Assembly: GCA_035294785.1 (NCBI GenBank)
Contig: DATGKF010000055.1
Coordinates: forward strand, 1,914-65,913
Source of the DNA: Caulobacteraceae bacterium
GTDB taxonomy: Bacteria; Pseudomonadota; Alphaproteobacteria; Caulobacterales; Caulobacteraceae
Reading direction: 5' to 3'
DNA length: 64,000 nucleotides
In this document: piece after piece, positions 36,871 to 55,597 of the stretch
Numbering within the stretch: position 1 is the first letter of the stretch
How the letters are laid out: the number at the start of each line of letters is the position of its first letter
Position numbers and translations under genes: made by a program
The notes under the pieces: model-generated
What the model saw: only the letters and a program-made list of their open reading frames with translations
Told to the model about the DNA's origin: nothing
Databases searched by the model: none

Positions 36871-37830
36871 ATGCGGCCCAGGCTGGGTCTCATTCTGGCG
36901 ATCGCCGCAGCGTTCGCGGCGATTTCCGCGCATGCGCAACCGCCCGCCCGCCCGCTGACGCCGGTGCAGAGGGCCCTCCTCAACGACATCTTCGTCGCCA
37001 AGCCGCTGAAGTCGAAGCACGGAGAGCTCCACGTCACGCCGGCGGCGGTTCCCTACGTTCGCGACGAAAACCGCACGGCCATGGGCGCCGGCGGGGTCTT
37101 CGCCCTGCCCGCCGTGACCGGATCGAACCTCGATCAAACCCGCCTCCTCGGCCGCGACCAGCTGGTCAACGGCCAGGGGATGGTCGTCTGGCGCGACAGC
37201 GAGGTCAGCCAGCCGGCGCCGGGCGGCGCCATAGACACGCTGCGCATGAGCTGGGGCGGCGTCGCCCGCGCGCCCGGCGGCGTCGTGTCGGCGCGGCCGG
37301 AAGGGCTGCTGGCGCCGGACGCCGAGGCCTTCGACGTCAGCTACACCCGCGGCTGGCCGGGCTTCTGGACGGCGTCGGACGGCCGCTATCAGGTCGACGT
37401 CTCGCCGCACGCCGGCGTCGGGTTCAACAACGCCGGCGGAACCGCCGAAGCCGGCGCGATGCTGCGGCTGGGCCGCGACCTCGGCCGCCAGGTGATGAAC
37501 AAGCTCGGCGGCCACGAGGTGGACGATTCCGCCTTCGCCGGCCAGGGCCGCTGGTTCCTCTTCGCCGCCGCCAGCGGCCGGGCGGTCGGATTGAACATGG
37601 TCCCGGCCGGCCTTGGTCTGCCGCAGCGCGCCGGCTGGTCGAACGAGTCGACGCCGGCGCTGGTCAATGACGCCCAGGCCGGCCTCGCCTGGCGCAAGGG
37701 CGATGTTCAGGCGTCGGTGGGCTACGTGCATCGCGACGTGAAGAGCCAGGCCGCCATCACCAGCGGCCCGGGCCCGGCCAGCTACCACGACTCCATGGTG
37801 GCTGTGTCCTTCAGCCTCACCTCGCGGTAG
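36871..37830 (+). CDS. Putative outer-membrane beta-barrel protein (LpxR/DUF2219-like C-terminus)
   Basis: Signal peptide; amphipathic beta-strands (DAQAGLAWRKG, ASVGYVHR); C-terminal VAVSFSL. Confidence 0.55.
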   Translation: MRPRLGLILAIAAAFAAISAHAQPPARPLTPVQRALLNDIFVAKPLKSKHGELHVTPAAVPYVRDENRTAMGAGGVFALPAVTGSNLDQTRLLGRDQLVNGQGMVVWRDSEVSQPAPGGAIDTLRMSWGGVARAPGGVVSARPEGLLAPDAEAFDVSYTRGWPGFWTASDGRYQVDVSPHAGVGFNNAGGTAEAGAMLRLGRDLGRQVMNKLGGHEVDDSAFAGQGRWFLFAAASGRAVGLNMVPAGLGLPQRAGWSNESTPALVNDAQAGLAWRKGDVQASVGYVHRDVKSQAAITSGPGPASYHDSMVAVSFSLTSR

Positions 37831-39693: not shown

Positions 39694-40473
39694 ATGGACC
39701 AGCGACATATCCGCCTGGAAGGCGTCGACAATTTTCGTGATTTCGGGGGCTATCGCGGCGCGGGCGGCAAGCGCGTGCGCGCCGGGCGCCTCTACCGCTC
39801 CGCCCACCATGGCGGGGCCACCGACGCCGATCTCGCCGCCATCGCGGCCCTGGAGCTCGCCGCCATCGTCGATCTGCGCCGCGGCGAGGAGCGCGAGCGC
39901 ATGCCCAGCCGGCGCCACGTCGACTTCGCCGCGCTGGTGATCGAGAACGACAGCAACGAGGCCACGCCCGACCCCTGGCTGGCCTTTATCAAGGCCTCCG
40001 ACGCCAGCGAGCAGGCGTTCCAGGGCTATCTCGACGGCTACTATCGCAACGCCCCGTTCGAGCCGAGGCATGTCGACCTTTTCAAGCGCTATTTCGCGGC
40101 GCTGGCCGAGGTGGACGGGCCGATCCTCGTCCACTGTGCGGCCGGCAAGGACCGCACCGGCGTCCTCGTCGCGCTCACCCACCATGTGCTCGGCGTCGAT
40201 CGCGACGACATCTTCGCCGACTATCTGCTCACCAACGCCGTCCTGCCGTTCGAGCGGCGGCTGCCGGTTCTGACCCAGGTCATCGCCGAGCAGGCGGGGC
40301 GCACGCCGACGCCAGCCGCCGTTCGCGCCGCCATGGCGGTGGAAGCGGCCTACCTCGAAGCGGCCTACGAAGCCATCGAGGCCAGCCACGGAGGGGTCGA
40401 CGCCTATCTCGCCGACGTCCTGGCCGTCGACGCCGCCGTGCGCGAAGCCATCCGCGACCGCCTGCTGGTCTAG
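39694..40473 (+). CDS. Tyrosine-protein phosphatase (Y_phosphatase3 family)
   Basis: NFRDFGGY; VDLRR; HCAAGKDRTG P-loop; DYLLTN. Confidence 0.9.
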   Translation: MDQRHIRLEGVDNFRDFGGYRGAGGKRVRAGRLYRSAHHGGATDADLAAIAALELAAIVDLRRGEERERMPSRRHVDFAALVIENDSNEATPDPWLAFIKASDASEQAFQGYLDGYYRNAPFEPRHVDLFKRYFAALAEVDGPILVHCAAGKDRTGVLVALTHHVLGVDRDDIFADYLLTNAVLPFERRLPVLTQVIAEQAGRTPTPAAVRAAMAVEAAYLEAAYEAIEASHGGVDAYLADVLAVDAAVREAIRDRLLV

Positions 40474-40566
40474 CCCGCCCGCTCTATCCGCCGCCCTTGG
40501 AAACCGGCTAGGGTCTTCCTCTCGCGGCCGCGCGAAGACGGCCGGGCGGTTTAGGGGAGGCTTGGC

Positions 40567-42021
40567 TTGACCGAGTTGGCGCCGGAGGACGACCTCAGGC
40601 CGGGCGTCGCGACGGCCCCGGACGGGGGCGGGCGGCTCTCGCTGGGCGCCGTGTCCTGGTCGGTCTTCGAGGGCGCGCGCGACCCCTACGTCATCCTGAT
40701 CATCATTTACATCTTCATGCCCTACGTGGGCTCGGTGATGGTGGGCTGGCCGCATTCCAATCCCACCGCCGGCCAGGAAGTCATCTCCCAGTGGAGCCAG
40801 TATTCCGGCTGGGCGACCATGGCGACGGCGCCGTTCCTGGGCGCCTCCATCGACCAGCTCGGCCGGCGCAAGGGCTGGCTGGCGCTGGCCATCGCCCTGA
40901 TGATCCCGCTGATGTTCGCCCTCTGGTGGGCCAAACCGGACGGGTCGGGGCTGCCGGTGATCGCGGTCATGCTCATGACCACGGTCATCGCGCTCCTCTT
41001 CAGCTACACCGAGGTGATCCACAATTCGCTGCTCGTCCGCGCCGCCGGCATGGGCGGGGCGCACAAGGCCTCCAGTCTGGCGCTGGCGCTGGGCAACGCG
41101 TTTGCGCTCCTCCTCTTCATCTTCCTCGCCTGGGGCTTCATGCTGCCGGGCAAGACCAACTGGCCCTGGGTGCCCAAGGCGCCGCTGTTCGGGATCAGCC
41201 AGGCGCTGCACCAGCCCGAGCGGCTGACCGGACCAATGACGGCGGCGCTGCTTCTGATCGGCAGCATCCCGATCCTGCTCTTCACCCCCGACGCCCCACG
41301 CTCCGGCGTCGGCGTCGTCAAGGCGTTCGCCGAGGGCGCGCGGTCGCTATGGCGCATGCTGACCACGGTCGGCCGCCACCGCGACGCGGCCATCTTCCTC
41401 GTCGCCCGCTCCTTCTACGTCGACGGCATGACCGCCGTGCTCACCTTCTTCGGCATCTACGCCACCGGCGTCATGCACTGGGGGGCGCTGGAGATGCTGG
41501 TGATCGGCATCATCCTCACCGTCCTGGCGGTGATCGGCGGCGTGCTCGCGCGGTTCTTCGACGCTGTTCTTGGACCCAGACGATCGGTGCAGCTCGAGAT
41601 CCTGATGTCGCTGGTCGGCATCATCGCGCTCCTGGGCATGGCCCCCGATCGCATCTTCTTCTTCTGGCACTACGATCCGGCGTTGCACGCGCCGATGTGG
41701 AACGGGCCTTTCTTCCGCACGCTGCCGGAGTGGATCTTCACGCTGATCGGGTTCTCGAACGCGATCTTCATCACCGCCCACTACGCGTCCAGCCGCACGC
41801 TGCTCACCCGGCTGACGCCCGCCGACCAGACAGGGGCCTTCTTCGGCGCCTACGCGGTCTCGGGCACGGCGACGGTGTGGCTCGCGCCGCTGATGGTCAA
41901 CATCGGCACACGGCTGTTCAAGAGCCAGCAGGGCGGCTTCGCCATGATCACCATCCTGCTGACGGTGGGCTTCTTCGGCCTGCTGTTCTTGCGGCGTGGG
42001 AACCGCGACTTCGCCGCCTAG
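40567..42021 (+). CDS. MFS transporter (UMF1/Atg22-like)
   Basis: About 12 hydrophobic segments; IDQLGRRK loop motif; ARSFYVDG; ASSRTLL...GAFFG. Confidence 0.82.
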   Translation: MTELAPEDDLRPGVATAPDGGGRLSLGAVSWSVFEGARDPYVILIIIYIFMPYVGSVMVGWPHSNPTAGQEVISQWSQYSGWATMATAPFLGASIDQLGRRKGWLALAIALMIPLMFALWWAKPDGSGLPVIAVMLMTTVIALLFSYTEVIHNSLLVRAAGMGGAHKASSLALALGNAFALLLFIFLAWGFMLPGKTNWPWVPKAPLFGISQALHQPERLTGPMTAALLLIGSIPILLFTPDAPRSGVGVVKAFAEGARSLWRMLTTVGRHRDAAIFLVARSFYVDGMTAVLTFFGIYATGVMHWGALEMLVIGIILTVLAVIGGVLARFFDAVLGPRRSVQLEILMSLVGIIALLGMAPDRIFFFWHYDPALHAPMWNGPFFRTLPEWIFTLIGFSNAIFITAHYASSRTLLTRLTPADQTGAFFGAYAVSGTATVWLAPLMVNIGTRLFKSQQGGFAMITILLTVGFFGLLFLRRGNRDFAA

Positions 42022-42548
42022 GGGCTGACCCGCGAGACCGGGTCGACGATCCGCGGCCGCAGATAGAAGGTATAGCTGAACGGGAACGAGGCCGGCAGCA
42101 TGTAGGCCACCGGCACGGTGTAGGTGTACTGCGCCTCGGCCTTGATGATGCTCTGGCTGTTGCCGATCAGGTTCGCCGGAATGGCGATCGTGTTCCCCGG
42201 CGTGTTCGCGGTCAGGCCGCTCGCGTCGCTCCAGCCCACCGTGGTCGCCCCCTTGGAGTCGGCCTGCACGCTGGTGATGCGCATCTTCAAGCCCGCCGTC
42301 GGATCGGGCGACATGATGATGTTGCCGATGGCGAAGATGTTGGTGATGTCGCTGTCGTGCAGGGTGGTCGCTTGAGCGGCCAGGTCTCCGACCGCGTAGG
42401 CGACGTGGCTGGTCTTGCGCTCGGCCAGCATCGCGCCGCAGAGCTCAGCCAGCCCGAAGTAGGCGAGGATCAGCACCGGCGCGATGAAGGCGAACTCGAC
42501 GGCCGAGACGCCCCGGGTGTCGCGGGCAAGACGTCGAAGGCGGATCAT
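42018..42548 (-). CDS. TadE/TadG-like pseudopilin (CpaK-like)
   Basis: RGVSAVEFAFIAP pilin-like cleavage motif; FYLRPR C-terminus; ATGA overlap with the upstream gene. Confidence 0.85.
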   Translation of the reverse strand: MIRLRRLARDTRGVSAVEFAFIAPVLILAYFGLAELCGAMLAERKTSHVAYAVGDLAAQATTLHDSDITNIFAIGNIIMSPDPTAGLKMRITSVQADSKGATTVGWSDASGLTANTPGNTIAIPANLIGNSQSIIKAEAQYTYTVPVAYMLPASFPFSYTFYLRPRIVDPVSRVSP

Positions 42549-43105
42549 GGCGTGTAGGGCTCGTTGCGGAAGACCGAGGTCGCGGTCAGCAGCGTCTGGC
42601 CGCCGTTGATCGGCGTGCCGATCTTGTCGAGCGCCGGCGCGATGACCGTCCATTGATAGAAGGCCTGCACCATGACGATGTCGCCCGGACCGCCGGTCTG
42701 GAACGGCAGCGTGTTCTGGGCGGCCATCTGGCCGTTCGTGATCGGGCTGGTCTGCGTGACGGTCTGAAAGCTCGAAAAGGTCTGAACGCTGACGCTTAGA
42801 TTGTTCGTGCAGTTCGAGCCCAGCCAGGTGAGCTGGTTGCAGATCAAGGTTTTGAACGAGGCCGCGGTCGCGCCGCCGGCGATCTGCAGCTGGCCGGTGC
42901 GGATCTCGCGCGCGGCCTCGAAGGTGGCGTTCTCGAGCGTCGTCGAGACGAAGTAGATCAGGCCGATTTCGATGATCCCGAAGGTCAGCGCCAGGAACGG
43001 AATCGACACCAGCGCGAACTCGACGGCGGCCGCGCCGCGCTCGCCGAGTCCGAAGCGTCGGGCAAGGCGCCGGGCGCGCCGAAAGGCGGAGAGTTTGGCC
43101 TTCAT
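42545..43105 (-). CDS. TadE-like pseudopilin (CpaJ-like)
   Basis: RGAAAVEFALVSIPF; AAREIRTGQ; FRNEPY. Confidence 0.88.
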   Translation of the reverse strand: MKAKLSAFRRARRLARRFGLGERGAAAVEFALVSIPFLALTFGIIEIGLIYFVSTTLENATFEAAREIRTGQLQIAGGATAASFKTLICNQLTWLGSNCTNNLSVSVQTFSSFQTVTQTSPITNGQMAAQNTLPFQTGGPGDIVMVQAFYQWTVIAPALDKIGTPINGGQTLLTATSVFRNEPYTP

Positions 43106-43129
43106 GCGGCGCAAGCTAGCCGGTCGTCC

Positions 43130-43144
43130 CTAAGGGACGTTTAA
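43130..43144 (-). promoter_or_regulatory. CtrA box upstream of the pseudopilin genes
   Basis: Minus strand TTAA-acgtccc-TTAG. Confidence 0.65.
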
Positions 43145-43170
43145 GCTCGGGGCCGAATCGTGGCGAAGCA

Positions 43171-43650
43171 TCAGGGGTGGTTCGCGGCGGGTGCAACGCT
43201 CGGCGCCGGCTCGGTGACCGTCATCGTCATCATGCCGTTGTTTGAGGTCGCCGCTTGCGCCGGCGCTGCGGGGGTGACGCCGTCGGCCGCCAGCGCCTGG
43301 CAGCGGCCGGCGCAGTTGTATTCGACCGGCGTCACGCCGCGGTAGACGGTCACCCGCGCCTGGTCGGGCGCCACGACGGCGACGCGGCCGTCAAACAGGG
43401 TGCGGCCGGCGTGGTCGGTGACCATGATTTCGGTCACGCCATAGGCCTTGCCCATGATCACCACGCTGTGGGGGTCGGTCATGGCCACGTCGGCGATGGC
43501 CGGGTTGGCGACGACGACGTTCGCCGCGACGCCGGGCAGGATCACGCGGCGGGACTGGTTCAACTCGACGCTCAGGCCGGCGGCGAAGGCCGCGCCGGCG
43601 GCCAGCGTCATGACGACCGTCAGGGAAAGCATCCAGATCGGACGGTGCAT
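43171..43650 (-). CDS. Pilus formation N-terminal domain protein (CpaI-like)
   Basis: Signal peptide; VVVANPAIADV...VIMGKAYGVT motif; C-terminal CAGRC. Confidence 0.8.
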   Translation of the reverse strand: MHRPIWMLSLTVVMTLAAGAAFAAGLSVELNQSRRVILPGVAANVVVANPAIADVAMTDPHSVVIMGKAYGVTEIMVTDHAGRTLFDGRVAVVAPDQARVTVYRGVTPVEYNCAGRCQALAADGVTPAAPAQAATSNNGMMTMTVTEPAPSVAPAANHP

Positions 43651-43797
43651 GGGGAGAGCCTCCAGGCGAAAGAGAGGGTCGGTCGGCAGAGAAGACTGGG
43701 TCCGCAATGGTCAACAAAGTCTGAAGCGGCGCGGCTCCCCCACGCGCGCGAGTCATAATGTGTGCAACGCAGGCTTTTCGCCCTGCAATCGCGCCTT

Positions 43798-43875
43798 GGT
43801 TAATAGAAGATAATAGTAAATGTCCGTATACCAACAAATATATTCGGTAATAGTCCGCTGTTTACTGACCATTAA
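43798..43875 (+). promoter_or_regulatory. AT-rich pilA promoter with CtrA boxes
   Basis: TTTA-ctgacca-TTAA at 43861-43875 and TTAA-tagaaga-TAAT near 43800. Multi-site CtrA control of pilA is established in Caulobacter. Confidence 0.75.
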
Positions 43876-43970
43876 GCGACGAGCGTCAAATTGCGCTCAG
43901 TTTTTCGGGGCGAGCAGGCCGACGGCTTGATGCTCCAGTCAACGGCTTGCTGAAACAGGAGACCAAGCAC

Positions 43971-44132
43971 ATGTCGAAGTTCTTTTCTCGGTTCGCGAAC
44001 GACGAGTCGGGCGCCACGGCCATCGAATACGGCCTGATCGTCGCGCTCATCGCCGTCGTCATCATCGGCGCGGTGACCACCGTCGGCACGAACCTGAGCA
44101 CGAAGTTCAACACCGTCGCCTCGAACGTCTAA
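43971..44132 (+). CDS. pilA: Flp/Tad major pilin
   Basis: MSKFFSRFANDESG/ATAIEYGLIVALIAVVII; AGGAG RBS. Confidence 0.96.
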   Translation: MSKFFSRFANDESGATAIEYGLIVALIAVVIIGAVTTVGTNLSTKFNTVASNV

Positions 44133-44163
44133 CCGACGCTTCGACGACACGTCAGAACTCGGA

Positions 44164-44192
44164 GGGCCGCGGCGCTTGCGTCGCGGCCTTTT
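44164..44192 (+). terminator. Intrinsic terminator after pilA
   Basis: GGCCGCGGCGC-TT-GCGTCGCGGCC-TTTT. Confidence 0.8.
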
Positions 44193-44228
44193 CCGTTTGT
44201 TCAGAGCTCCGCCCTATTCAGCGGCGGC

Positions 44229-45824
44229 ATGCGGCCTTCCCGCTTCCGAGTCCCGGTCACGATCGCGCTCGCCGCGCTGATCCTGCTTGGCCCGGCGCTG
44301 TTCTGGGGCCGCCCCTTCATCTTCTACGACACGCCGGTCTATTGGGGCTGGGGCAAGGACGTCGTCGGGGCGCTCCAGCATCCCTGGCCGCGCGCCGGCG
44401 CCCCATGGATCCCCGGCCGGCCGCTGTTCGGCTGGGAGCTCGGCGCCCACGGCGCGACCCTCGGCGACCTTCGCTTCACGCTCACGGCTATCGAGGCCCG
44501 CTCGATCTTCTACGCCGTTCCGCTCTACCTGCTCGCCGCCGCGGGCGGCCTCTGGCTGGTCGCGGCGCTGCAGGCGCTCGCCGCCGCCCTCGTGCTGCGC
44601 ACGTCGGTCCGTGCGCTCGCGCCGGCGCTCGGCGAGGCCGCCTTCCTTGCGGTCACGGCGGCGCTCGTCCTTCTGACCGCGGTCGGATTCGAGGCCTGCG
44701 ACATTATGCCCGACCTGTTCGGCGGCCTGGCGGTGCTCGCCGCCGCCGTGCTGATCGCCCGGCCGGAGCGGCTGAGCCGCGCTGCGCGTCTCGGCCTTGC
44801 CGCCGTCGCCGGCTATGCGGTGCTCGCCCACGCCGAGAACGGCCTGAACCTCGCGGCGGCGGCCGCGTTCGGCGTCGTCTTTTTCGCGCGCGAGGGGATG
44901 AAGGCCGCCCTTCTGCGCGTCGCGCCGGTCGCGGGCGCGCTGGCAGCGGCCGCGATCGTCGGCCTGATCGGCCACGCCGGCGTCGAGCAGGCATTCGGCC
45001 GTCCGTCGCATCCCGCGCCGTTCCTGGTCAGCCGCCTCGCCGCCGACGGGGCGGTCCAACGCTATCTCGCCAAGGCCTGCTCCAGACCCGGGCTCGCGTC
45101 GTGCGACCTGGCGCAGATCCACGCCGACTATCCGGAATACTATCTCGCCCTCTACCCGCTCAGCCCGCCGCCCGATCTTGCGAACGCCGCCAGCGCCTAC
45201 GACCGCCTCCAGTCCACCGATGTGAGCGACGCGTCGGCGGCCCGGCGCGAGCGTTTCCTCGCCGAGGGGCCGCGCCTCGTCGCCGGCGCGCTGACCGCCG
45301 ACGGGCCGCATCTTGCGGCGCTCGCGCTCGCCCGCGGCGGCGCGCTGATGGGCGCCGGCGCCGTCGGGCCGAACTTCGACAGCTTCGCCGGCCTGATGCG
45401 CGAAAGGACGCAGCGAGCGCGCGAGACGGCGGCCATCACCCCCGGCGCGGCGGACTGCGGGCGGACGCGGGCGGCGTCCTGCGGCCCACTCGCCCCCGGC
45501 CCGCTGGCGGCGATCCAGACGCTCGCCCTGCTCGCCGGCCTCGCCGCGCTCGGCGGTTGCCTGCTCCTCGACGCGCCCGAAGCGCGGGATCTCCGCGCTT
45601 TCGCCGCCCAGATCCTCTTCCTGCTCATGGCCAACGCGCTGATCTGCGGCGCGCTCTCCGGGCTCTACGAGCGCTACCAGATCCGCGTGGCCTGGCTGGC
45701 GCCGTTCGTCGCCCTCGTCGCATTGGCCAGCGGCCTCGTCCGCAGGCGCGCCCGCGCAACGCTTCCTTCACCTGTGCCCGGGATCGTTCCACCGATCGCC
45801 GCCGTCCAGAGACGCCCATCGTGA
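44229..45824 (+). CDS. Polytopic membrane protein, putative GT-C superfamily glycosyltransferase
   Basis: TM1 followed by PFIFYDTPVY (acidic residue in the first external loop); RSIFY; MPDLF; multiple TMs; large Cys-containing loop; C-terminal YERYQ. Stop overlaps the cpaA start. Function inferred from topology and motifs. Confidence 0.6.
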   Translation: MRPSRFRVPVTIALAALILLGPALFWGRPFIFYDTPVYWGWGKDVVGALQHPWPRAGAPWIPGRPLFGWELGAHGATLGDLRFTLTAIEARSIFYAVPLYLLAAAGGLWLVAALQALAAALVLRTSVRALAPALGEAAFLAVTAALVLLTAVGFEACDIMPDLFGGLAVLAAAVLIARPERLSRAARLGLAAVAGYAVLAHAENGLNLAAAAAFGVVFFAREGMKAALLRVAPVAGALAAAAIVGLIGHAGVEQAFGRPSHPAPFLVSRLAADGAVQRYLAKACSRPGLASCDLAQIHADYPEYYLALYPLSPPPDLANAASAYDRLQSTDVSDASAARRERFLAEGPRLVAGALTADGPHLAALALARGGALMGAGAVGPNFDSFAGLMRERTQRARETAAITPGAADCGRTRAASCGPLAPGPLAAIQTLALLAGLAALGGCLLLDAPEARDLRAFAAQILFLLMANALICGALSGLYERYQIRVAWLAPFVALVALASGLVRRRARATLPSPVPGIVPPIAAVQRRPS

Positions 45825-46339
45825 CCCTGATCCAGATCGCGCTCTTGAGCCTCTTTCCGGCGCTCGCCGTCGTCGCGGCGCTGACCGACCTCGCTAGCTT
45901 CACCATCCCGAACCGGCTGAACATCGCGCTCGCCGTCGCCTACCCCATCGCCGCGTTGGCGCTCGGCCGCCCGTTCGCCGAAATCGGCGTTGGGCTTGGC
46001 GTCGGCGCGGTCGCGCTCCTGATCGCCGTCGGGCTTTTCGCCGGCGGCTGGATCGGCGGTGGCGACGCCAAGCTGTTCGCGGCCGCCGCGCTCTGGCTGG
46101 GCTGGCCGGCCGCGCTCTCGTTTCTGATGGTGACGGCGCTGGCCGGCGGCGGCCTGGCGCTGCTGCTGCTCAACGCGCGCAGCCAGTGGCTCAAGCCATA
46201 TCTGGCCGCTGCGCCGCCGTGGCTCGAGCGGCTGACCACGACCGGGCAGGCGGTGCCCTACGGCGTCGCGATCGCCATCGGCGCGCTGGCCGCATTCCCC
46301 GAGGCGGCGATCGTCCGCGGCGTTCACGCACCTTTTTAG
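45821..46339 (+). CDS. cpaA: Prepilin peptidase CpaA (A24)
   Basis: ALTDLASFTIPN; GGGDAKL catalytic Asp; VPYGVAIA. Confidence 0.92.
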   Translation: MTLIQIALLSLFPALAVVAALTDLASFTIPNRLNIALAVAYPIAALALGRPFAEIGVGLGVGAVALLIAVGLFAGGWIGGGDAKLFAAAALWLGWPAALSFLMVTALAGGGLALLLLNARSQWLKPYLAAAPPWLERLTTTGQAVPYGVAIAIGALAAFPEAAIVRGVHAPF

Positions 46340-46356
46340 GCCATTCACCGAACCGC

Positions 46357-46372
46357 TTAGGTCGTCGTTAAC
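46357..46372 (+). promoter_or_regulatory. CtrA box upstream of cpaB
   Basis: TTAG-gtcgtcg-TTAAC. Confidence 0.65.
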
Positions 46373-46417
46373 CATGGCCCGAGCAAGGTCGGCGCACGTC
46401 TCCGGAGAGCGTCACCG

Positions 46418-47305
46418 ATGAGCCGAGCCAGAATCTTCATCGTCCTCGCAATCGCCTTGGTCGGCGCCTTCGGCATGGTCCTGCTCGTCGGCATGCTCAC
46501 CAAGCACAAGCCGGCGCCGGTCGTGGCCGCCGTGGCTGCGCCGGAGCAGCCGATGGCGCGGGTGCTCGTCGCCAAGCGGGATCTGCCTGTCGGGACGCGC
46601 CTGGACGCCAGCGACATGGCCTGGCAGGACTGGCCCGCAACCGCCGTCAATCCGGTCTTCATCACCGACGGCCAGGGCGCGCACGCGCCCCCCGTCTCCA
46701 TCGCCGCTCAGGCCGGCCAGACGATCCATGCCGCCACCTCGGTGATCACCGGGGCCGCCGGACCGATGCAACAGCTCTCCGGCTCGATCGTCCGCACCGA
46801 GATCCTCGCCAATGAGCCGATCGAGAACGCCAAGCTCGTCCGCGGCGGGGAGGGCGGCTACATGGCCGTCGTGCTCCGTCCGGGCATGCGCGCCGTCTCG
46901 GTGGCCGTGCAGCCGAACTCCGACGCCGGCGGCTTCATCCTGCCCGGCGACCGCGTCGACGTGGTGCAGGCGCACTCCACAGACGCCGCCTCGAACGGCG
47001 GCCGCGCAGGCTTCGTCGCCGAGACCCTGCTCCGCAACGTTCGGGTTCTGGCCATCGACCAGACCAGCCAGCCGCCGAAGAATGGCCAACAGAGCGAGGT
47101 CGGCGCCGTCGCCACGATCGAGGTCTCGGCCGCCGACGTCGGCCTGATCGCCAAGGCCAAGCTGCAGGGCGACGGGCTCATCCTGGCGCTGCGCCCGTAT
47201 TCCGACGCCAATCAGCCCTCAGGGCGCGGCGACGACTCCGAAGACGCCGGTCAGGTGCGAATCTTCCGCGCCGGCCAACCCCCCGAAGTGGTGGCTCTCC
47301 AATGA
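46418..47305 (+). CDS. cpaB: Flp pilus assembly protein CpaB/RcpC
   Basis: SAF domain VLVAKRDLPVG; PGMRAVSV; GGFILPGDRVDV; LRNVRVLAIDQ. Confidence 0.93.
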   Translation: MSRARIFIVLAIALVGAFGMVLLVGMLTKHKPAPVVAAVAAPEQPMARVLVAKRDLPVGTRLDASDMAWQDWPATAVNPVFITDGQGAHAPPVSIAAQAGQTIHAATSVITGAAGPMQQLSGSIVRTEILANEPIENAKLVRGGEGGYMAVVLRPGMRAVSVAVQPNSDAGGFILPGDRVDVVQAHSTDAASNGGRAGFVAETLLRNVRVLAIDQTSQPPKNGQQSEVGAVATIEVSAADVGLIAKAKLQGDGLILALRPYSDANQPSGRGDDSEDAGQVRIFRAGQPPEVVALQ

Positions 47306-48861
47306 CGCACAGCTTTCGCTCCCTCGCCGCGCTGGCGGCGTTCGGCTTCGCCCTCGTCGCCCTCGTCGCCGCGCCCGCCCGGGCGCAGAGCCGCGAGCCG
47401 GCGGCGCCGATGCATGTGGATCTGTCGACCGGCGCGGCGCAGTCGATCTCCATCCCGCGCGGCAAGTCGGCGATCATCGACCTGCCGGTGGACGCCCGCG
47501 ATGTGTTGGTGACCAACCCGCAGGTGGCCGACGCGGTCCTGCGCACGCCCCGGCGGATCTATGTGGTCGGCCTCGCGCCCGGCGCGACCGACGCGGCCTT
47601 CTTCGATGCCGGCGGACGGCGGATCCTGGCGCTCAACATCCGTGTCGATCAGGACTTCAGCGCGGTCGCCCAGACCATCAACCGCCTGATCCCCAACGCG
47701 CGGGTCCACGTCGAGGGGGTGAACCAGAGCGTCATCCTCTCCGGCTCGGTCGCCAACGCCAGCGAGGCCGACCAGGCGGTCCAGATCGCCCAGCAGTTCA
47801 CCGCCAGTCCCACCCAGGTGGTGAACATGCTCTCCATCGCCGGCAAGGAGCAGGTGATGCTGAAGGTGCGCATCGTCGAGATGCAGCGCAGCGTCATCAA
47901 GCAGCTCGGCTTCAACCTGAACGCCCTGCTGGGCCAGGCCGGCAGCCCGCAGTTCCTGGTCGGCGAGGCCGCCAGCTTCGCGATCAACGGCGCGCTCCTC
48001 GGCGGTATCAACGCCGGCACGCAGATCGACACCACGCAGCAGCCGGAGGTGAAAGCTTTCGATCCGCTGACCAATGCTTTCGACATCAACCAGGTCTGCG
48101 GCGGCTGCAACAACGGCGGCCAGCACACGATCGCCACCACCCAGACCACCTCGGGCTCCAACGGCCTGAACAAAGGTAACGCCAATATCGAGGCGTTTGA
48201 ACGCGTCGGCCTCGTGCGCATGCTCGCCGAACCGAACCTGACGGCGGTTTCGGGCGAATCGGCCCGCTTCCTCGCCGGCGGCGAATTCCCCGTGCCGTCC
48301 GGCGAAGACTCGACCGGGCGCGTCAGCATCGAGTTCAAGCCCTTTGGGGTCGGCCTCGGCTTCACGCCGATCGTGCTCTCGTCCGGGCGCATCTCGCTGA
48401 AGATTTCGACCGAGGTGTCAGAGCTCTCCAACCAGGGCGCCTTCACCCTGTCGAACGGAGCGGGCGCGCCGGCGCTGACCATCCCGGGGCTCACGGTCCG
48501 CCGCGCCGAGACGGTGGTCGAACTTCCGTCTGGCGGGTCGATGATGATCGCCGGCCTCCTGAACGAGGAGACCAAGCAGGACCTGGATTCGGTCCCGGGG
48601 CTGATGAACCTGCCGGTGCTCGGCGCGCTCTTCCGCAGCCGCGACTACCAGTCCGGCGAGACCGAGCTCGTCGTCATCGTCACGCCCTATCTGGTCAACC
48701 CGACCAGCCCGGCCAACCTGCAGACCCCGGCCGACGGCTTCCAAATGGCCGACGACGCACAGACGCTTCTGCTCGGACGCCTCAACAAGGCCAACAAGGC
48801 GCCGCCCGCCGCGGTCGCCGGCAAGACCTACCAGGGACCCGTCGGCTATGTCATCGACTAG
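47302..48861 (+). CDS. cpaC: Tad secretin CpaC/RcpA
   Basis: NPQVADA; QVMLKVRIVE; LAEPNLTAVSGESARFLAGGEFP; LPVLGALFRS; ETELVVIVTP. Confidence 0.94.
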   Translation: MTHSFRSLAALAAFGFALVALVAAPARAQSREPAAPMHVDLSTGAAQSISIPRGKSAIIDLPVDARDVLVTNPQVADAVLRTPRRIYVVGLAPGATDAAFFDAGGRRILALNIRVDQDFSAVAQTINRLIPNARVHVEGVNQSVILSGSVANASEADQAVQIAQQFTASPTQVVNMLSIAGKEQVMLKVRIVEMQRSVIKQLGFNLNALLGQAGSPQFLVGEAASFAINGALLGGINAGTQIDTTQQPEVKAFDPLTNAFDINQVCGGCNNGGQHTIATTQTTSGSNGLNKGNANIEAFERVGLVRMLAEPNLTAVSGESARFLAGGEFPVPSGEDSTGRVSIEFKPFGVGLGFTPIVLSSGRISLKISTEVSELSNQGAFTLSNGAGAPALTIPGLTVRRAETVVELPSGGSMMIAGLLNEETKQDLDSVPGLMNLPVLGALFRSRDYQSGETELVVIVTPYLVNPTSPANLQTPADGFQMADDAQTLLLGRLNKANKAPPAAVAGKTYQGPVGYVID

Positions 48862-48865
48862 GGAA

Positions 48866-49540
48866 ATGCTTCGCTGCCTGATCGTCTCCGGCCTGGCGCT
48901 GTTCGCCACCGGATGCGCCACCGATGGGCTGATGCATCACGCCGACAAGACGCCCCCGGCGGTCACGCCCACGGAGCAGTACGCCATCACGGTCACGCGC
49001 GCGCCGGACGAGATCCTGCTGGCGCCGCACGCCGACGGTCTTTCGGCGGCGCAAAGCGCGGCGTTGGCGGCGCTGGTCCAGCGCTGGCGCGATGTCGACG
49101 GCGATGAGATCACGATCCACAGTCCAGGCGGCCAGGCGCAGGCCTACCGGGCCGTCGCCGCGGTGCAGGAAGCGCTCGAGGGCCTCGGCGTCCGCTCCGA
49201 CCAGATCACCCTCGCCGCCTACGATCCCGGCGACCGCGCGGGCGCGCCGATCGCCGTCGGGTTCGAGGGCTATCACGCCCAGGGCCCCGCCTGCGGACGC
49301 AACTGGAAGGACTTCACCAAGACGTTCCAGAACCAGGTGAACAACAACTTCGGCTGCGCGACGACGGCGAACATGGCGGCGATGATCGCCAACCCCGCCG
49401 ACCTCCTGCGGCCGCGCGCGATGGACGCCCCTGACGCGGCCCGTCGCGAGACGGTGCTCGGCAAGTACCGCCAGGGCGCGGTCACCTCCTCGCCCAAGGA
49501 TCCGCAGGCGAACGGCGCCGTTTCGAACACGCTGCAATAG
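48866..49540 (+). CDS. cpaD: Pilus assembly lipoprotein CpaD
   Basis: Lipobox LFATGC; NFGCATTANMAAMIANPADL. Confidence 0.92.
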   Translation: MLRCLIVSGLALFATGCATDGLMHHADKTPPAVTPTEQYAITVTRAPDEILLAPHADGLSAAQSAALAALVQRWRDVDGDEITIHSPGGQAQAYRAVAAVQEALEGLGVRSDQITLAAYDPGDRAGAPIAVGFEGYHAQGPACGRNWKDFTKTFQNQVNNNFGCATTANMAAMIANPADLLRPRAMDAPDAARRETVLGKYRQGAVTSSPKDPQANGAVSNTLQ

Positions 49541-49553
49541 CAGGCACCCCCCC

Positions 49554-51002
49554 GTGAACAACACCACCCAACCCGCCCCCGACGATCCCGCGACAAGCTT
49601 CGGCGCCGACGACGAATTCGCGCCCCAGACGGCTGACCACTGGCGGCCGGCGCCGGGCGCTGGCGAGGCGGTCGACGACGACGATCCGTTTCTGACTCCG
49701 CAAGAGCCGCTGGCGAGCTTCGACGCCGAACACGACGGCGCCCACGCGTCGCCGCCGGCGGTCAATCCGGTCGGCGACCTGATCGCCGGGGCCGAAGCGG
49801 TGCTTGGCGAGGCGAGCGTGCCGCGGATCGGCATCCACATCTTCTGGGAGCGGGCCGAAACCGCCGAGATGGCCGAAAGGGCGGCCGCCGATCGGCGCAT
49901 GGGCCGGGCCTCGACCGAGGTGCGCGAAGGTGGTCTCGCCGCCGCCGTCGCCCAGTATCAGAACCAGCCGACGCCGCCGCTGATCATCGTCGAGAGCCAG
50001 GCGCCGGCGCAGGTGATGCTCGAACAGCTCGATCAGCTGGCGCAGGTCTGCGACGCCGGCGCCAAGGTGGTCGTGATCGGCTCGCACAACGACATCGCCC
50101 TCTACCGCGAGCTGATGCGCCGCGGGGTGAGCGAGTACCTGGTGCCGCCGCTGCAGCCGCTGCAGCTGATCGGCGCGATCACCACCCTGTATGCCGATCC
50201 GGCCGCGCCGTTCGTCGGTCGCCAGATCGCCTTCGTCGGCGCCCGCGGCGGGGTGGGATCGTCGACCGTCGCGCACAACCTCGCCTATCTCTTGTCCGAG
50301 ACGATGCGCACCAACACGGTGATCGTCGATCTCGACCTGCCGTTCGGCACAGCCGGCCTCGACTTCAACCAGGACCCGCTGCAGGGCGTGGCCGACGCGC
50401 TCAGCCAGCCGGACCGGCTGGACCCGGTGCTGCTGGATCGCATGATGGCCCGCTGCGGCGATCGCCTGAGCCTCTTCGCCGCTCCGGCGACCCTGGACGC
50501 CGACTACGACATCAGCGCCGACGCCTTCGAGGAGGTGACCAGCAAGATCCGCGCGACGGCGCCCTACGTCGTTCTCGATCTGCCGCACCTCTGGTCGGGA
50601 TGGATGCGCCGCACGCTGCTCGGCGCCGACGACGTCGTGGTCACCGCCTCGCCCGACCTCGCGTCGCTGCGCAACGCCAAGAACATCGTCGACCTGGTCC
50701 GCGCCGCGCGCCCGAACGACACGCCGCCGCTCTTGGTGCTGAACATGGTCGGCTCGCCCGGCCGGCCTGAGATCCCGACCAAGGACTTCGGCGAGGCTCT
50801 CGGGCTCGAAACCTCGATCGTGATCCCCTTCGACGCCAAGCTGTTCGGTCAGGCGGCCAACAACGGCCAGATGATCGAGGAGATCGGGCCGAAGTCGAAG
50901 GCCGCCGAGGCCTTTCAGCGGCTCTCATTGGCGATCACCCGCCGGGACCCGCCGCCGGCCCCGAAGAAATCCGGTCTCTCCAGCCTGTTCAAGCGCAAGT
51001 AG
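49554..51002 (+). CDS. cpaE: Pilus localisation ATPase CpaE/TadZ
   Basis: Acidic N-terminal extension; NDIALYRELM; GARGGVGSST deviant Walker A; DLDLPFGT. Confidence 0.93.
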   Translation: MNNTTQPAPDDPATSFGADDEFAPQTADHWRPAPGAGEAVDDDDPFLTPQEPLASFDAEHDGAHASPPAVNPVGDLIAGAEAVLGEASVPRIGIHIFWERAETAEMAERAAADRRMGRASTEVREGGLAAAVAQYQNQPTPPLIIVESQAPAQVMLEQLDQLAQVCDAGAKVVVIGSHNDIALYRELMRRGVSEYLVPPLQPLQLIGAITTLYADPAAPFVGRQIAFVGARGGVGSSTVAHNLAYLLSETMRTNTVIVDLDLPFGTAGLDFNQDPLQGVADALSQPDRLDPVLLDRMMARCGDRLSLFAAPATLDADYDISADAFEEVTSKIRATAPYVVLDLPHLWSGWMRRTLLGADDVVVTASPDLASLRNAKNIVDLVRAARPNDTPPLLVLNMVGSPGRPEIPTKDFGEALGLETSIVIPFDAKLFGQAANNGQMIEEIGPKSKAAEAFQRLSLAITRRDPPPAPKKSGLSSLFKRK

Positions 51003-51008
51003 GCCCAA

Positions 51009-52583
51009 GTGTTCGGGAAACGCCCAGCCGACGGCGATCCGCCAAAGCCGCAGGCGCCGCCGCCTCCCGAAGCCGGCGCGCCGATCGCCACGCGGCCGCA
51101 GAAGGTCGAGCCGGCGTTGTCGAAACAGGCGCTCGCCCCGCCCAAGGCGCCCGCGGCCCAGCCGCCGCGCCAGCAAGGCGCGGCCGACCGTATCGCCGGC
51201 GCACACGCCCAGCAGGCCAGCGCCGCGGCCGGCGGCCCCAAGCTGACTTCGGCCTTCGAGCAGCTGCGCGCGGCGCAGGGTGCGCCGACGGCCGATATCG
51301 TCCGTGAACAGAGCGACTACTACCACGCCACGAAGACCACGATCTTCAACGCGCTGATCAACACCATCGATCTCGCACAGCTGGCGCAGCTCGACCTGAA
51401 GACGGCCGGCGAAGAGATCCGCGACATCGTCGCCGAGCTGGTGGCGATCAAGAACGTCTCGATGTCTGTAGCCGAGCAGGAACACCTGGTTCAGGACATC
51501 ATCAACGATGTCCTTGGCTACGGCCCGCTCGAGCCGCTTCTGGCCCGCGACGACATCGCCGACATCATGGTCAATGGCGCCGGCCGGGTGTTCATCGAAG
51601 TGGGCGGCAAGGTCCAGCTGACCAACGTCCGCTTCCGCGACAACGCCCAGCTGATGAACATCTGCCAACGGATCGTCAGCCAGGTCGGCCGCCGGGTCGA
51701 CGAGGCCTCGCCGATCTGCGACGCGCGCCTCCCCGACGGCAGCCGTGTCAACGTCATCGCGCCGCCCTTGGCTCTGGATGGGCCGACTCTCACCATCCGG
51801 AAGTTCAAGAAAGACAAGCTGACGATGCGCAATCTGGTCGAGTTCGCCTCGGTCAGTCCGGAAGGCGCGCGCGTCCTGGGCGTCATCGGCGCGTCGCGCT
51901 GCAACGTCCTCATCTCCGGCGGCACCGGCTCGGGCAAGACGACGCTGCTCAACACGCTTACCGCCTTCATCGATCCGACCGAGCGGGTGATCACCTGCGA
52001 GGACGCGGCCGAGCTGCAACTGCAACAGCCGCACGTTGTGCGCCTTGAAACGCGTCCGCCGAATCTGGAGGGCAGCGGCCAGGTGACCATGCGCGATCTG
52101 GTCAAGAACTGCCTCAGAATGCGCCCGGAACGGATCATCGTCGGCGAAGTGCGCGGCCCTGAGGCGTTCGACCTGCTGCAGGCGATGAACACCGGCCACG
52201 ACGGGTCGATGGGGACGCTGCACGCCAACAGCCCGCGCGAGGCGATCAGCCGGATCGAGTCGATGATCACCATGGGCGGCTACGGCCTTCCGTCGAAGAC
52301 CATCCGTGAGATGATCGTCGGGTCCGTCGACGTGATCATCCAGGCCGCGCGCCTGCGCGACGGCTCGCGCCGCATCACCCACGTGACCGAAGTGGTGGGC
52401 CTCGAGGGCGAGGTGATCATCACCCAGGACCTCTTCGTCTACGAGATCACCGGCGAGGACGAGAACGGCGGCGTGGTCGGCAAGCACCGCTCGACCGGCA
52501 TCGCCCGCCCGCGCTTCTGGGACCGGGCGCGCTACTACGGGCTCGAGCGCGAACTTGCCGAAGCGTTGGACGCGGCGGAGTAG
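51009..52583 (+). CDS. cpaF: Tad pilus ATPase CpaF/TadA
   Basis: GGTGSGKTT; EDAAEL; LRMRPERIIVGEVRG; NTGHDGSMGTLHAN. Confidence 0.96.
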   Translation: MFGKRPADGDPPKPQAPPPPEAGAPIATRPQKVEPALSKQALAPPKAPAAQPPRQQGAADRIAGAHAQQASAAAGGPKLTSAFEQLRAAQGAPTADIVREQSDYYHATKTTIFNALINTIDLAQLAQLDLKTAGEEIRDIVAELVAIKNVSMSVAEQEHLVQDIINDVLGYGPLEPLLARDDIADIMVNGAGRVFIEVGGKVQLTNVRFRDNAQLMNICQRIVSQVGRRVDEASPICDARLPDGSRVNVIAPPLALDGPTLTIRKFKKDKLTMRNLVEFASVSPEGARVLGVIGASRCNVLISGGTGSGKTTLLNTLTAFIDPTERVITCEDAAELQLQQPHVVRLETRPPNLEGSGQVTMRDLVKNCLRMRPERIIVGEVRGPEAFDLLQAMNTGHDGSMGTLHANSPREAISRIESMITMGGYGLPSKTIREMIVGSVDVIIQAARLRDGSRRITHVTEVVGLEGEVIITQDLFVYEITGEDENGGVVGKHRSTGIARPRFWDRARYYGLERELAEALDAAE

Positions 52584-52586
52584 GCC

Positions 52587-53573
52587 TTGAACCCGCTGCT
52601 CATTCTGGTCGCGGTGCTGGGCTTCGTGACCCTTGGCGGCGTGGGCTTCGCCCTGGCCGGCGCGGGCGGCGGCGACGCACGGGTGGCCAAACGCGCCAGG
52701 GCGATGGGCACGGTCGGTCGGCCGGAGAAGGCCCAACGCGGCGCGCGCGCGGCGCAGCAGGACGCCGGCCAGCGGCGCAAGGCGTTGCTGCAGACGCTGA
52801 AGGAGCAGGAGCGCCTGCAACGGCGCGCGTCCGTTTCGCTCAGCGCGCGCTTGCAACAGGCCGGGCTCAGCATTTCGGTCACCCAGTTCTGGATCGGCAG
52901 CGGGATCGCCGGCGCGGCCGTGCTGATCGTCCTGTTCGTACTTCGCGTGCCCCCGTGGGCGGCGCTGCTGCTCGCCCTCGTCGCCGCGCTCGGTCTGCCG
53001 CGCTGGGCGATCACCTTCCTCGCCAATCGCCGCAAAAAGAGCTTCACCGAGTCCTTCTCCGACGCCATCGACATCATCGTCCGCGGCATCAAATCGGGCC
53101 TTCCGGTGCACGACTGCCTGCGCGTCATCGCGCGCGAGAGCTCCGCCCCGCTCGGGCCGGAGTTCCACCGGCTGGTCGAGAATATCTCCATGGGCATGAC
53201 CGTCGATCAGGGCCTGGAGAAGATGTACGAGCGCATGCCGACGCCCGAGCTGCGCTTCTTCACCATCGTGCTCGCCATTCAGGCCAAGACGGGCGGGAAC
53301 CTGGCCGAGGCGCTGGGCAACCTCTCGGCCGTGCTCCGCGCCCGCAAGCTGATGCGCGAAAAGATCAAGGCGCTGTCGTCTGAAGCGACCACGTCGGCCT
53401 TCATCATCGGTTCGCTGCCGATCGCGGTCATGCTGCTCGTGATCGCCACGACGCCGTCCTACATGATGATCATGATCCACGACCCGCGCGGCCAGATGAT
53501 GCTGCTCGCCGGCGCCATCGTCGAATGCATCGGCGTCTTCGTCATGCGCCGCATGATCAACTTCAAATACTAG
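52587..53573 (+). CDS. tadB: Tad inner-membrane platform TadB/CpaG
   Basis: DAIDIIVRGIKSG; QAKTGGNLAEAL. Confidence 0.92.
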   Translation: MNPLLILVAVLGFVTLGGVGFALAGAGGGDARVAKRARAMGTVGRPEKAQRGARAAQQDAGQRRKALLQTLKEQERLQRRASVSLSARLQQAGLSISVTQFWIGSGIAGAAVLIVLFVLRVPPWAALLLALVAALGLPRWAITFLANRRKKSFTESFSDAIDIIVRGIKSGLPVHDCLRVIARESSAPLGPEFHRLVENISMGMTVDQGLEKMYERMPTPELRFFTIVLAIQAKTGGNLAEALGNLSAVLRARKLMREKIKALSSEATTSAFIIGSLPIAVMLLVIATTPSYMMIMIHDPRGQMMLLAGAIVECIGVFVMRRMINFKY

Positions 53574-53586
53574 CGGGGCGGAGACC

Positions 53587-54579
53587 ATGGATTTCGCCAC
53601 CATCGCCGGCTTCGTCACCGACCCGCAGCACTTGCTGATGGGCTTTACGGCCCTGGTCACGTTCGCGACCATCGTCACGCTGTCCTCGCCGCTGCTCAAT
53701 CGCTCGACGCTCGAGAGCCGGCTGAACTCGGTCGCCAACCGGCGCGAGGAGCTGCGCCGCCGCAGCCGCGAGGCGCTGGCGCAGAAGAACCAATCCGGCA
53801 CGCTGCGTCAGACCGACGAGGGCATGTTCAAGACCATCGTCGACCGGCTGCAGCTGTCGCGCCTGCTCGAAGATCCCCAGGTGGCCGACAAGCTGGCGCA
53901 GGCCGGCTTCCGCGGTCCGCGGCCGATCACGACCTTCTATTTCTTCCGCCTGGTGACGCCGTTCGTGTTCGCCGTGGCGCTGGCGGCCTACCTCTACACG
54001 CTCAATCCCTTCCACCTTCCGGGTCTGACCAAATTCTGCATCTGCATCGGCGGTCTGACGGCCGGCTACTACGCGCCCAACGTCTACATCCAGAACGTCG
54101 CCGCAAAGCGGCGCACCTCGATCATGCAAGGCTTCCCGGACGCCCTCGACCTGCTCTTGATCTGTGTCGAGTCCGGCATGTCGATCGAGGCGGCGCTGCA
54201 GAAGGTCAGCCAGGAGCTTGGCCCCTCGTCGATCGAGCTGGCCGAAGAGCTTTCGCTGCTCGTCGCGGAACTCTCCTACCTGCCCGAGCGGCGCGTCGCC
54301 TACGAGGGGCTGTCCAAGCGGACGAACCATCCGGGCATCAAGTCGGTCGCCACCGCCATGATCCAGGCGGAGCGCTACGGCACCCCGCTCGGCACCGCCC
54401 TTCGCGTGATGGCGAAGGAAAACCGCGACCTTCGCCTGGCCGCCGCCGAGAAGAAGGCTGCGGCGCTGCCGGCCAAGCTGACCGTGCCGATGATCGTCTT
54501 CTTCCTGCCGGTCCTCTTCATCGTCGTCCTCGGCCCCTCGATCATCCGCGTCCAGGACGTCATGGCCCACAAGGGCTAG
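53587..54579 (+). CDS. tadC: Tad inner-membrane platform TadC/CpaH
   Basis: FPDALDLLLICVESG; QAERYGT; AEKKAAALPAKLTVPM. Confidence 0.93.
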   Translation: MDFATIAGFVTDPQHLLMGFTALVTFATIVTLSSPLLNRSTLESRLNSVANRREELRRRSREALAQKNQSGTLRQTDEGMFKTIVDRLQLSRLLEDPQVADKLAQAGFRGPRPITTFYFFRLVTPFVFAVALAAYLYTLNPFHLPGLTKFCICIGGLTAGYYAPNVYIQNVAAKRRTSIMQGFPDALDLLLICVESGMSIEAALQKVSQELGPSSIELAEELSLLVAELSYLPERRVAYEGLSKRTNHPGIKSVATAMIQAERYGTPLGTALRVMAKENRDLRLAAAEKKAAALPAKLTVPMIVFFLPVLFIVVLGPSIIRVQDVMAHKG

Positions 54580-54611
54580 CGGCCGCGCTGACCCTCGGCT
54601 GAGCAGCCGCC

Positions 54612-55561: not shown

Positions 55562-55597
55562 GCTTGACGAAATCTTACCTCGGGCTATGGCCCGCCC

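What the first reader, a model, noticed from the sequence alone, without database searches (positions are those of the whole stretch)
43971..46339. Candidate Tad/Flp pilin glycosylation module: a GT-C-like membrane enzyme between pilA and cpaA
Seen: a 531-aa polytopic membrane gene (44229-45824) sits directly after the pilin, and its stop overlaps the GTG of the prepilin peptidase (GTGA), implying translational coupling to pilin processing. It has TM1 followed by a D-T-x-x-Y loop motif, MPD, several TMs, a large Cys-containing loop and a C-terminal RY. The predicted 39-aa mature pilin has a Ser/Thr/Asn-rich exposed end (TTVGTNLSTKFNTVASNV). Established: GT-C enzymes have this topology and use lipid-linked sugars. 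In C. crescentus, as I recall, pilA is directly followed by cpaA. In P. aeruginosa the pilin-glycosylating TfpO/TfpW lie immediately downstream of pilA and glycosylation blocks pilus-specific phages, and Caulobacter pili are receptors for phiCbK-like phages. Inference: this may be an undescribed Tad-pilin modification or phage-shielding system.
Basis: partly seen in the sequence, partly recalled or inferred. Interest (0 to 1): 0.8.

Follow-up and report, generated by a model that had tools for sequence, protein, structure and literature searches.

The report
Membrane sugar-transferase beside Tad pilin gene
In one group of uncultured Caulobacter relatives, a gene for a membrane enzyme predicted to transfer sugars sits between the adhesion-pilus subunit gene and its processing enzyme, so it possibly sugar-coats the pilus, although it could equally modify another surface sugar and merely have landed there.

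Summary
In detail: pilA (43971-44132), a 531-aa orphan gene X (44229-45824), then cpaA. X has no Pfam or NCBIfam match, but its confident model matches only GT-C enzymes in the top 12 rows (Z 9.7-15.9). Family invariants include D34 and D162. Relatives often sit in GT2 + GT-C + GtrA cassettes; one such cassette elsewhere in this genome could supply the lipid-linked sugar. X fills the pilA-cpaA slot in 10 of 18 genomes of this genus, at 51-87% identity, and these pilins all keep Ser29. But this is one evolutionary event. Close orthologues sit elsewhere, and distant relatives were never beside pilins (0 of 45, 0 of 18). One genome lost X yet keeps an identical pilin. The GTGA overlap is not evidence of coupling: X's tail reads through cpaA's own conserved upstream box. 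Verdict: a GT-C of an uncurated family, acceptor unknown. Odds: pilin O-glycosylation about 0.42, another surface glycan about 0.38. Phage shielding is analogy only. Earlier scan notes report other GT-Cs beside Flp genes in other phyla; none matched this sequence.

The parts
43861..43875 (+). CtrA-box-like site (one mismatch to TTAA-N7-TTAA) upstream of pilA
   Evidence: 6 such sites in the window against 0.21 expected; consensus from passages of PMC11264516
43971..44132 (+). pilA, Flp prepilin, 53 aa; mature pilin 44013-44129 (39 aa); Ser29 is the candidate acceptor
   Evidence: (PF04964 E 5e-21)
44165..44192 (+). terminator-like hairpin with U-run after pilA; X starts 40 nt after the hairpin
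   Evidence: hairpin present in 14 of 14 slot loci examined
44229..45824 (+). gene X: 531-aa predicted GT-C_A-fold glycosyltransferase of an uncurated family (D34, R91, D162, H201, C284/C292, R482-Y483)
45756..45772 (+). conserved box upstream of cpaA, likely part of its promoter, lying inside X codons 510-515
   Evidence: in 17 of 18 genomes of the genus with or without X; once in the own genome; the pattern was drawn from these same sequences
45821..46339 (+). cpaA (TadV) prepilin peptidase, 172 aa
   Evidence: PF01478 E 7e-15
46357..46371 (+). CtrA-box-like site upstream of cpaB
46418..54579 (+). rest of the Tad operon (context): cpaB, cpaC secretin, cpaD, cpaE, cpaF ATPase, tadB, tadC
42018..43707 (-). 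divergent Tad genes (context): secretin-N-like protein and two TadE-like pseudopilins

Best explanation
Gene X encodes a predicted GT-C membrane glycosyltransferase that likely O-glycosylates the Flp pilin encoded just upstream, probably taking a lipid-linked sugar made by a GT2/GtrA cassette elsewhere in the genome. Inferred steps: the GT2 on contig C109 loads one sugar on undecaprenyl phosphate, and the GtrA domain fused to X's paralogue flips it. X then transfers it, through the periplasmic aspartates D34 and D162, to Ser/Thr on the exposed C-terminal half of the membrane-bound pilin; Ser29 is the best candidate. X is likely made at low level by read-through of the pilA terminator or from a short promoter overlapping it. 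The sugar would mask the pilus surface, as TfpW's does in Pseudomonas. Shown: gene order, conservation and slot retention. Predicted: fold. Inferred only: donor, acceptor, site and any anti-phage role.
For: Model pLDDT 90, pTM 0.91. The top 12 rows of the wide structure search are all GT-C-fold proteins: Pmt1-Pmt2 Z 15.9 (rmsd 4.4, 334 aligned), AftA 15.1, AglB 14.6, PglB 14.0, ArnT 14.0. Foldseek ranks ArnT first, E 0.003. The family goes with GT2 and GtrA: 9 loci have a GT2 directly upstream and 6 of those proteins are GtrA-fused; one such cassette is in the own genome. X holds the slot in 10 of 11 genomes of one clade and in 11 of 19 close metagenome loci (one duplicates a genome). The 10 full-length slot proteins are 51-87% identical and share one site, whereas 7 'elsewhere' orthologues at 57-100% occupy at least 4 sites. 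Neighbouring accessory genes come and go in the same genomes. Slot pilins carry 7-9 Ser+Thr in residues 22-39 (mean 7.3, 13 distinct) against 5.75 (8 empty-slot) and 5.1 (10 from other genera). Ser29 is in 13 of 13, against 2 of 8 and 2 of 10. Precedents: TfpW is a GT-C gene directly after pilA, and Aggregatibacter Flp1 is glycosylated.
Against: The position needs only one change on the tree, and the slot group's monophyly is unsupported, 52/48, so the counts are not independent. No family member lay within 10 kb of a Flp gene in 45 other Caulobacteraceae genomes holding both (compared by eye; many on separate contigs). No pilin motif was found near 18 other alphaproteobacterial homologues or 87 distant loci. 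Orphan homologues sit among unrelated housekeeping genes, so arbitrary landing is common in this family. G002 is nested in the slot clade, has no X, and has a mature pilin identical to this one. The fold cannot tell protein from glycan acceptors: Pmt, AftA, AglB, PglB and ArnT lie within 2 Z units. Two Caulobacteraceae homologues lie next to rhamnose-pathway genes with GT2 and GtrA. The C. crescentus Tad pilus map shows no glycan.
Confidence: 0.42

Rival explanations
1. X is a GtrC-like side-chain transferase for a surface glycan or lipid (O-antigen, capsule, lipid A or glycolipid). It landed once between the pilA terminator and the cpaA promoter, a harmless gap, and was inherited there.
For: The family's usual company is GT2 + GtrA, the three-component layout that decorates O-antigens (passages of PMC11127046). 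Orphans sit at unrelated sites. The position is one event. X's 3' end merely reads through the cpaA upstream box. G002 lost X with no pilin change. Orthologues 47-60% identical are kept outside the slot.
Against: The slot group stayed put over deeper divergence than the mobile sister group. Neighbouring accessory genes were lost more often. Slot-specific residues cluster in the first loop next to D34 (5 of 10 listed positions), which suggests a changed acceptor. Ser29 is fixed while neighbouring polar pilin positions vary.
Confidence: 0.38
2. X is a broader protein O-glycosyltransferase for swarmer-stage envelope proteins, such as Tad pseudopilins, CpaB or other membrane proteins, with the major pilin at most one substrate.
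For: The best structural match is the protein O-mannosyltransferase Pmt1-Pmt2, and the nearest named Atlas clusters are PMT-like, TM 0.60-0.63. In several slot genomes the donor cassette lies within about 10 kb of a TadG-like gene and a second pilin.
Against: The lead over AftA and ArnT is under 2 Z units. No substrate evidence exists for other proteins.
Confidence: 0.13
3. X is a non-catalytic pilin accessory protein that helps pilin maturation or assembly.
For: It lies in the pilus cluster on the same strand, and its frame ends at the cpaA start in 8 of 10 slot genomes.
Against: The catalytic-type residues are intact and shared with non-pilus relatives. Eight genomes of the genus have the same pilA-cpaA genes without X in the slot.
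Confidence: 0.05

Closest known systems
TfpW of Pseudomonas aeruginosa group IV strains (pilin D-arabinofuranosyl transferase)
   Same: GT-C gene immediately after pilA; donor pathway with a GtrA-like flippase encoded in another cluster; Ser/Thr acceptors (bioRxiv 10.1101/2020.04.19.049825, part 1 of 4 read). Pilin glycosylation blocks pilus phages (abstract of 10.1101/150227).
   Different: TfpW is 646 aa with a periplasmic TPR domain and a DDX motif and acts on a type IVa pilin. X is 531 aa, has no TPR domain, has D-T-x-x-Y, and neighbours a 39-aa Flp pilin. A UbiA-type prenyltransferase found beside a family member in another genome had no match in the own 82%-complete genome. Sequence homology to TfpW was not tested.
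GtrABC three-component periplasmic glycosylation systems (Shigella/Salmonella O-antigen glucosylation; GT136)
   Same: GT2 + GtrA + GT-C layout in X's paralogue and many relatives (passages of PMC11127046).
   Different: X stands alone, without GT2 or GtrA in cis; its acceptor is unknown; it has no sequence match to a named family.
ArnT / PMT-type GT-C_A enzymes
   Same: Fold (Z 14.0 and 15.9); an aspartate after the first membrane helix, in register with the ArnT-type D-E motif in a weak profile alignment (probability 0.7%, E 0.08).
   Different: No PF13231 or PF02366 match in 41 of 41 close members; no C-terminal soluble domain; a Trp-rich insert in the first loop that is private to this subfamily.
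Glycosylated Flp1 of Aggregatibacter actinomycetemcomitans
   Same: Shows that Flp pilins can be glycosylated (passage of PMC6182317).
   Different: Only RcpC/CpaB was tentatively implicated, and it is now described as a structural conduit (passages of PMC12307814). The passages read named no transferase.

Membership tests
GT-C_A fold superfamily | 7-13 membrane helices with the GT-C core fold | tested here: met
   top 12 rows are GT-C-fold proteins; 8 hydropathy peaks over threshold, about 10-11 membrane helices read from the model
GT-C_A fold superfamily | conserved acidic residue in the loop after helix 1 | tested here: met
   D34 in 108 of 108 rows and in 261 of 262 rows with a residue (whose numbering is shifted by 6); register with the ArnT-type motif only weakly shown
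GT-C_A fold superfamily | transfer from a lipid-linked sugar donor | not testable with these tools
   inferred from fold and from GT2/GtrA neighbours of relatives
TfpW family | gene directly downstream of the major pilin gene | tested here: met
TfpW family | large periplasmic C-terminal TPR domain | tested here: not met
   no TPR hit; the model ends with a membrane helix at 490-509 and a low-confidence tail
TfpW family | D-arabinofuranose donor pathway in the genome | tested here: inconclusive
   one UbiA-type query found nothing in the 82%-complete genome; DprE1/E2 not searched
TfpW family | pilin glycosylation activity | not testable with these tools
GtrABC three-component system | GT2 lipid-sugar synthase and GtrA flippase encoded with the GT-C | tested here: inconclusive
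   not in cis for X; present on contig C109 with a paralogue
ArnT/PMT (PF13231, PF02366) | profile match over the curated cut-off | tested here: not met
   0 of 41 members; X none at E<=0.1
TfpO/PglL O-oligosaccharyltransferases (Wzy_C type) | PF04932 match | tested here: not met
   no match for X; the genome's two Wzy_C genes are on other contigs

The most novel reading that the evidence does not exclude
X is a dedicated Flp/Tad pilin O-glycosyltransferase from a large uncurated GT-C family. It was recruited from a GtrABC-type surface-glycan cassette into the pilA-cpaA slot, where it sugar-coats Ser29 and neighbouring residues of the 39-aa pilin and shields the Tad pilus from pilus-binding phages. 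That would be a TfpW-like defence evolved independently for Tad pili, and it could be moved into Caulobacter crescentus.
Probability: 0.35. Interest if true: 0.75.

Novelty: new variant of a known kind. Interest (0 to 1): 0.5.

Why it matters
Flp pilin glycosylation is on record in Aggregatibacter, but eight literature searches (open-access and bioRxiv text only) listed no paper naming a GT-C enzyme for Tad pilins. X is a single gene next to a 39-aa substrate, in a relative of the model organism in which the Tad pilus structure, the unglycosylated baseline and the pilus phage phiCbK are all known. The question can therefore be settled with one expression experiment. Whatever the acceptor, a result would give a first function to a family of about 2000 representatives with no Pfam or NCBIfam model. 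If the acceptor is another surface glycan, the finding is an ordinary orphan glycosyltransferase in a suggestive place.

Tried and rejected
Translational coupling to cpaA as evidence: rejected. A supposed remnant of X in the empty slot of G002: the only match is the cpaA upstream box, which empty-slot genomes also have; G002's loss rests on the cpaA+cpaB tree alone. An N-linked site: the N27-L-S29 sequon is present here, but N27 is in only 4 of 13 distinct slot pilins. Sequence searches of solved structures gave nothing significant. No tblastn match in plasmids or phages. NCBIfam gave no family for 29 of 29 family members scanned. No Rfam match in 40000-56000; no meaningful repeats. No RNA run was listed for the locus, which is no evidence either way. 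Complex prediction of X with the pilin was not available, so there is no result. The profile comparison with ArnT-like proteins was not significant. No conserved promoter or Shine-Dalgarno site was found before X in 14 loci, so read-through versus an own leaderless promoter is open. The frameshift in G015's X is a one-base gap against a 98.7%-identical contig with an open frame, probably an assembly error. Longer or fused forms were not searched systematically.

Full report
Observation. The window holds a complete Tad locus: two TadE-like genes and a secretin-N-like gene on the minus strand, then pilA, gene X, cpaA, cpaB, cpaC, cpaD, cpaE, cpaF, tadB and tadC. Record titles of close relatives read 'Caulobacteraceae bacterium' or uncultured Alphaproteobacteria. 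The own genome is 82% complete.

What X is. X has no Pfam or NCBIfam match, and none of 41 close members has a Pfam hit below E 0.01. It belongs to a large family: 2120 representatives at E<=0.001. AlphaFold on a 41-row alignment gave pLDDT 90.1 and pTM 0.91. Foldseek found nothing at E<=0.001 but ranked ArnT first, with AglB, STT3 and EmbB close behind. In the wide search of 48,161 chains the top 12 rows were all GT-C-fold proteins, led by Pmt1-Pmt2 Z 15.9, AftA 15.1, AglB 14.6, PglB 14.0 and ArnT 14.0; the first unrelated row was at 9.0. The Atlas gave unnamed clusters at TM 0.77-0.85, one of them 99% GtrA-bearing, and PMT-like clusters at 0.60-0.63. D34, D162, H201, C284, C292 and R482 are invariant in 108 of 108 rows. 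A GT-C enzyme is therefore well supported as a prediction. The fold does not name the acceptor.

Where the donor could come from. Among 20 fetched regions, 9 had a GT2 directly upstream of a family member, and 6 of the members scanned carried a C-terminal GtrA domain. The own genome has such a cassette on contig C109. Its GT2 is closest to AglJ-type lipid-phosphate sugar synthases but below every cut-off, so the sugar is unknown. This is the three-component layout described for O-antigen decoration (passages of PMC11127046). X has neither partner in cis, like TfpW, whose donor genes lie in another cluster.

How often the slot is filled. The genus has 18 genomes. X lies between pilA and cpaA in 10 of them; in G011 only the cpaA side is assembled. 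Eight have pilA directly before cpaA, and two of those eight carry a close orthologue elsewhere. Of 19 close metagenome loci, 11 are in the slot (one duplicates G004, several show one flank only) and 8 are elsewhere. On a cpaA+cpaB tree the slot genomes form one clade, with G002 nested inside as a loss. On the X tree (31 rows) the subfamily has support 100/100, the 'elsewhere' group 96/90 and the slot group only 52/48; one change of position is enough. The slot proteins are 51-87% identical and share one site; 7 'elsewhere' proteins are 57-100% identical and occupy at least 4 sites. Accessory genes near the locus (aminotransferase IV, GT87, LpxR-like) are patchier than X in the same genomes. 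This hints at selection on position, but it remains one event.

Outside the clade the link disappears. The family was found in 63 of 301 Caulobacteraceae genomes (5 candidates scored per genome). Of 51 such genomes outside the genus, 45 had a Flp gene, and none lay within 10 kb of a family member; the nearest was 19 kb away. I compared the tables by eye, and contig breaks could hide a case. In other Alphaproteobacteria 18 of 300 genomes had a member, none with a pilin motif within 1.5 kb. No Flp motif was found in 87 distant loci, mostly acidobacterial where named and many short. Of 57 neighbours scanned, most were housekeeping or unassigned; 2 were GT2 and 3 were GT87. Two Caulobacteraceae members sit beside rhamnose-pathway genes with GT2 and GtrA.

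The overlap with cpaA. A box upstream of cpaA (window 45756-45772) is present in 17 of 18 genomes of the genus, with or without X, and occurs once in the own genome (the pattern was drawn from these sequences). CpaA is described as CtrA-dependent in C. crescentus, so the box is likely part of cpaA's own promoter. X's last 20 codons, low-confidence in the model, read through it. The TGA across the cpaA start is present in 7 of 8 empty-slot genomes too. X ends there in 8 of 10 slot genomes; G015's X ends earlier, and G003 has an acyltransferase gene in between. Coupling is therefore not required. Upstream, X starts 25-42 nt after the pilA hairpin in 13 of 14 loci, with no Shine-Dalgarno match in 14 of 14. 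X inserted into the gap between a terminator and a promoter, which fits either low-level co-expression with pilA or a harmless landing.

The pilin. In the solved C. crescentus filament the polar C-terminal patch forms the outer surface and shows no glycan density (passages of PMC10710030). Slot pilins have 7-9 Ser+Thr in residues 22-39 (13 distinct), against 4-8 in 8 empty-slot pilins and 3-7 in 10 from other genera. Ser29 is in 13 of 13, 2 of 8 and 2 of 10. Polar neighbours vary within the slot group while Ser29 does not. The nominal p of 4e-5 overstates the case because these are kin. G002 has the same mature pilin as this window without X, so the pilin sequence alone does not imply glycosylation.

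Mechanism and odds. Most likely, by a narrow margin (0.42): GT2 loads the lipid carrier, GtrA flips it, and X transfers one sugar to pilin Ser/Thr at the membrane surface. Nearly as likely (0.38): X decorates a surface polysaccharide or lipid and its position is inherited chance. A broader protein target gets 0.13 and a non-catalytic role 0.05. Anti-phage function rests on analogy: Pseudomonas pilin glycans block phages (abstract), and phiCbK needs Tad pili (passages). That pilA directly precedes cpaA in C. crescentus is recalled; it fits the empty-slot loci and a table in PMC2529317.

Literature and earlier notes. Eight searches listed no paper on a GT-C enzyme for Tad pilins or on this family; subscription journals and supplements were not seen. 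What I read: part 1 of 4 of the TfpW preprint, the abstract and outline of 10.1101/150227, and matched passages of the other seven papers. Seventeen earlier scan notes (8 shown) describe GT-C genes beside Flp genes in other phyla. None matched X by sequence and none concerned Caulobacteraceae. They are unchecked and are not counted as support. My test found no pilin link for this family in other phyla.

Verdict. X works like a GT-C_A transferase and is placed like TfpW, but it is not a TfpW-family member (no TPR domain) and matches no curated family. It is a concrete, cheaply testable candidate for Flp pilin glycosylation, with an equally serious ordinary reading.

Noticed in passing
own genome C109:9341-17265 (L066); L292-L297, L299: A second Flp pilin gene lies within about 2.5-6 kb of the GT2 + GT-C-GtrA cassette, with a TPR gene between, in 7 slot genomes and probably in G002; all these pilins have Ser29. 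A TadG-like gene is nearby in 6. No pilin was found there in G015, G016, G017 or G007.
   Followed up: partly
L273, L275, L279, L282, L134, L278 (5-7 kb from pilA on the tadE side): Other GT-C genes gather beside the Tad locus in this genus. GT87 is there in 4 genomes. One contig of the same neighbourhood has GT87 + an 'elsewhere' orthologue of X + GT87. G013 has an unrelated membrane protein with no Pfam match and an Asp-rich first loop. The own genome has no GT87 match.
   Followed up: partly
L065:7871-8890 (G003): An Acyl_transf_3 acyltransferase gene is inserted on the opposite strand between X and the cpaA upstream box; it could acetylate a glycan.
   Followed up: no
window 43130-43144, 43861-43875, 46357-46371, 55547-55561: Four of the six CtrA-box-like sites in the window lie in or at the edge of the Tad locus.
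   Followed up: no
L042 (G002): The mature pilin is identical in 39 of 39 residues to this window's although cpaA is only 70% identical, which points to strong constraint on the pilin.
   Followed up: partly
window 44349-44483 (X residues 41-85): A Trp-rich insert in the first periplasmic loop is shared by the slot and 'elsewhere' groups and missing from the rest of the family; it has low model confidence and may shape the acceptor site.
   Followed up: no
L056, L060, L061, L062: In four other Caulobacteraceae genomes the pilA-cpaA gap holds a second pilin gene instead.
   Followed up: no
window 36871-37830: LpxR-like outer-membrane protein gene between nrdA and a GST-like gene, patchy in the genus.
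   Followed up: no
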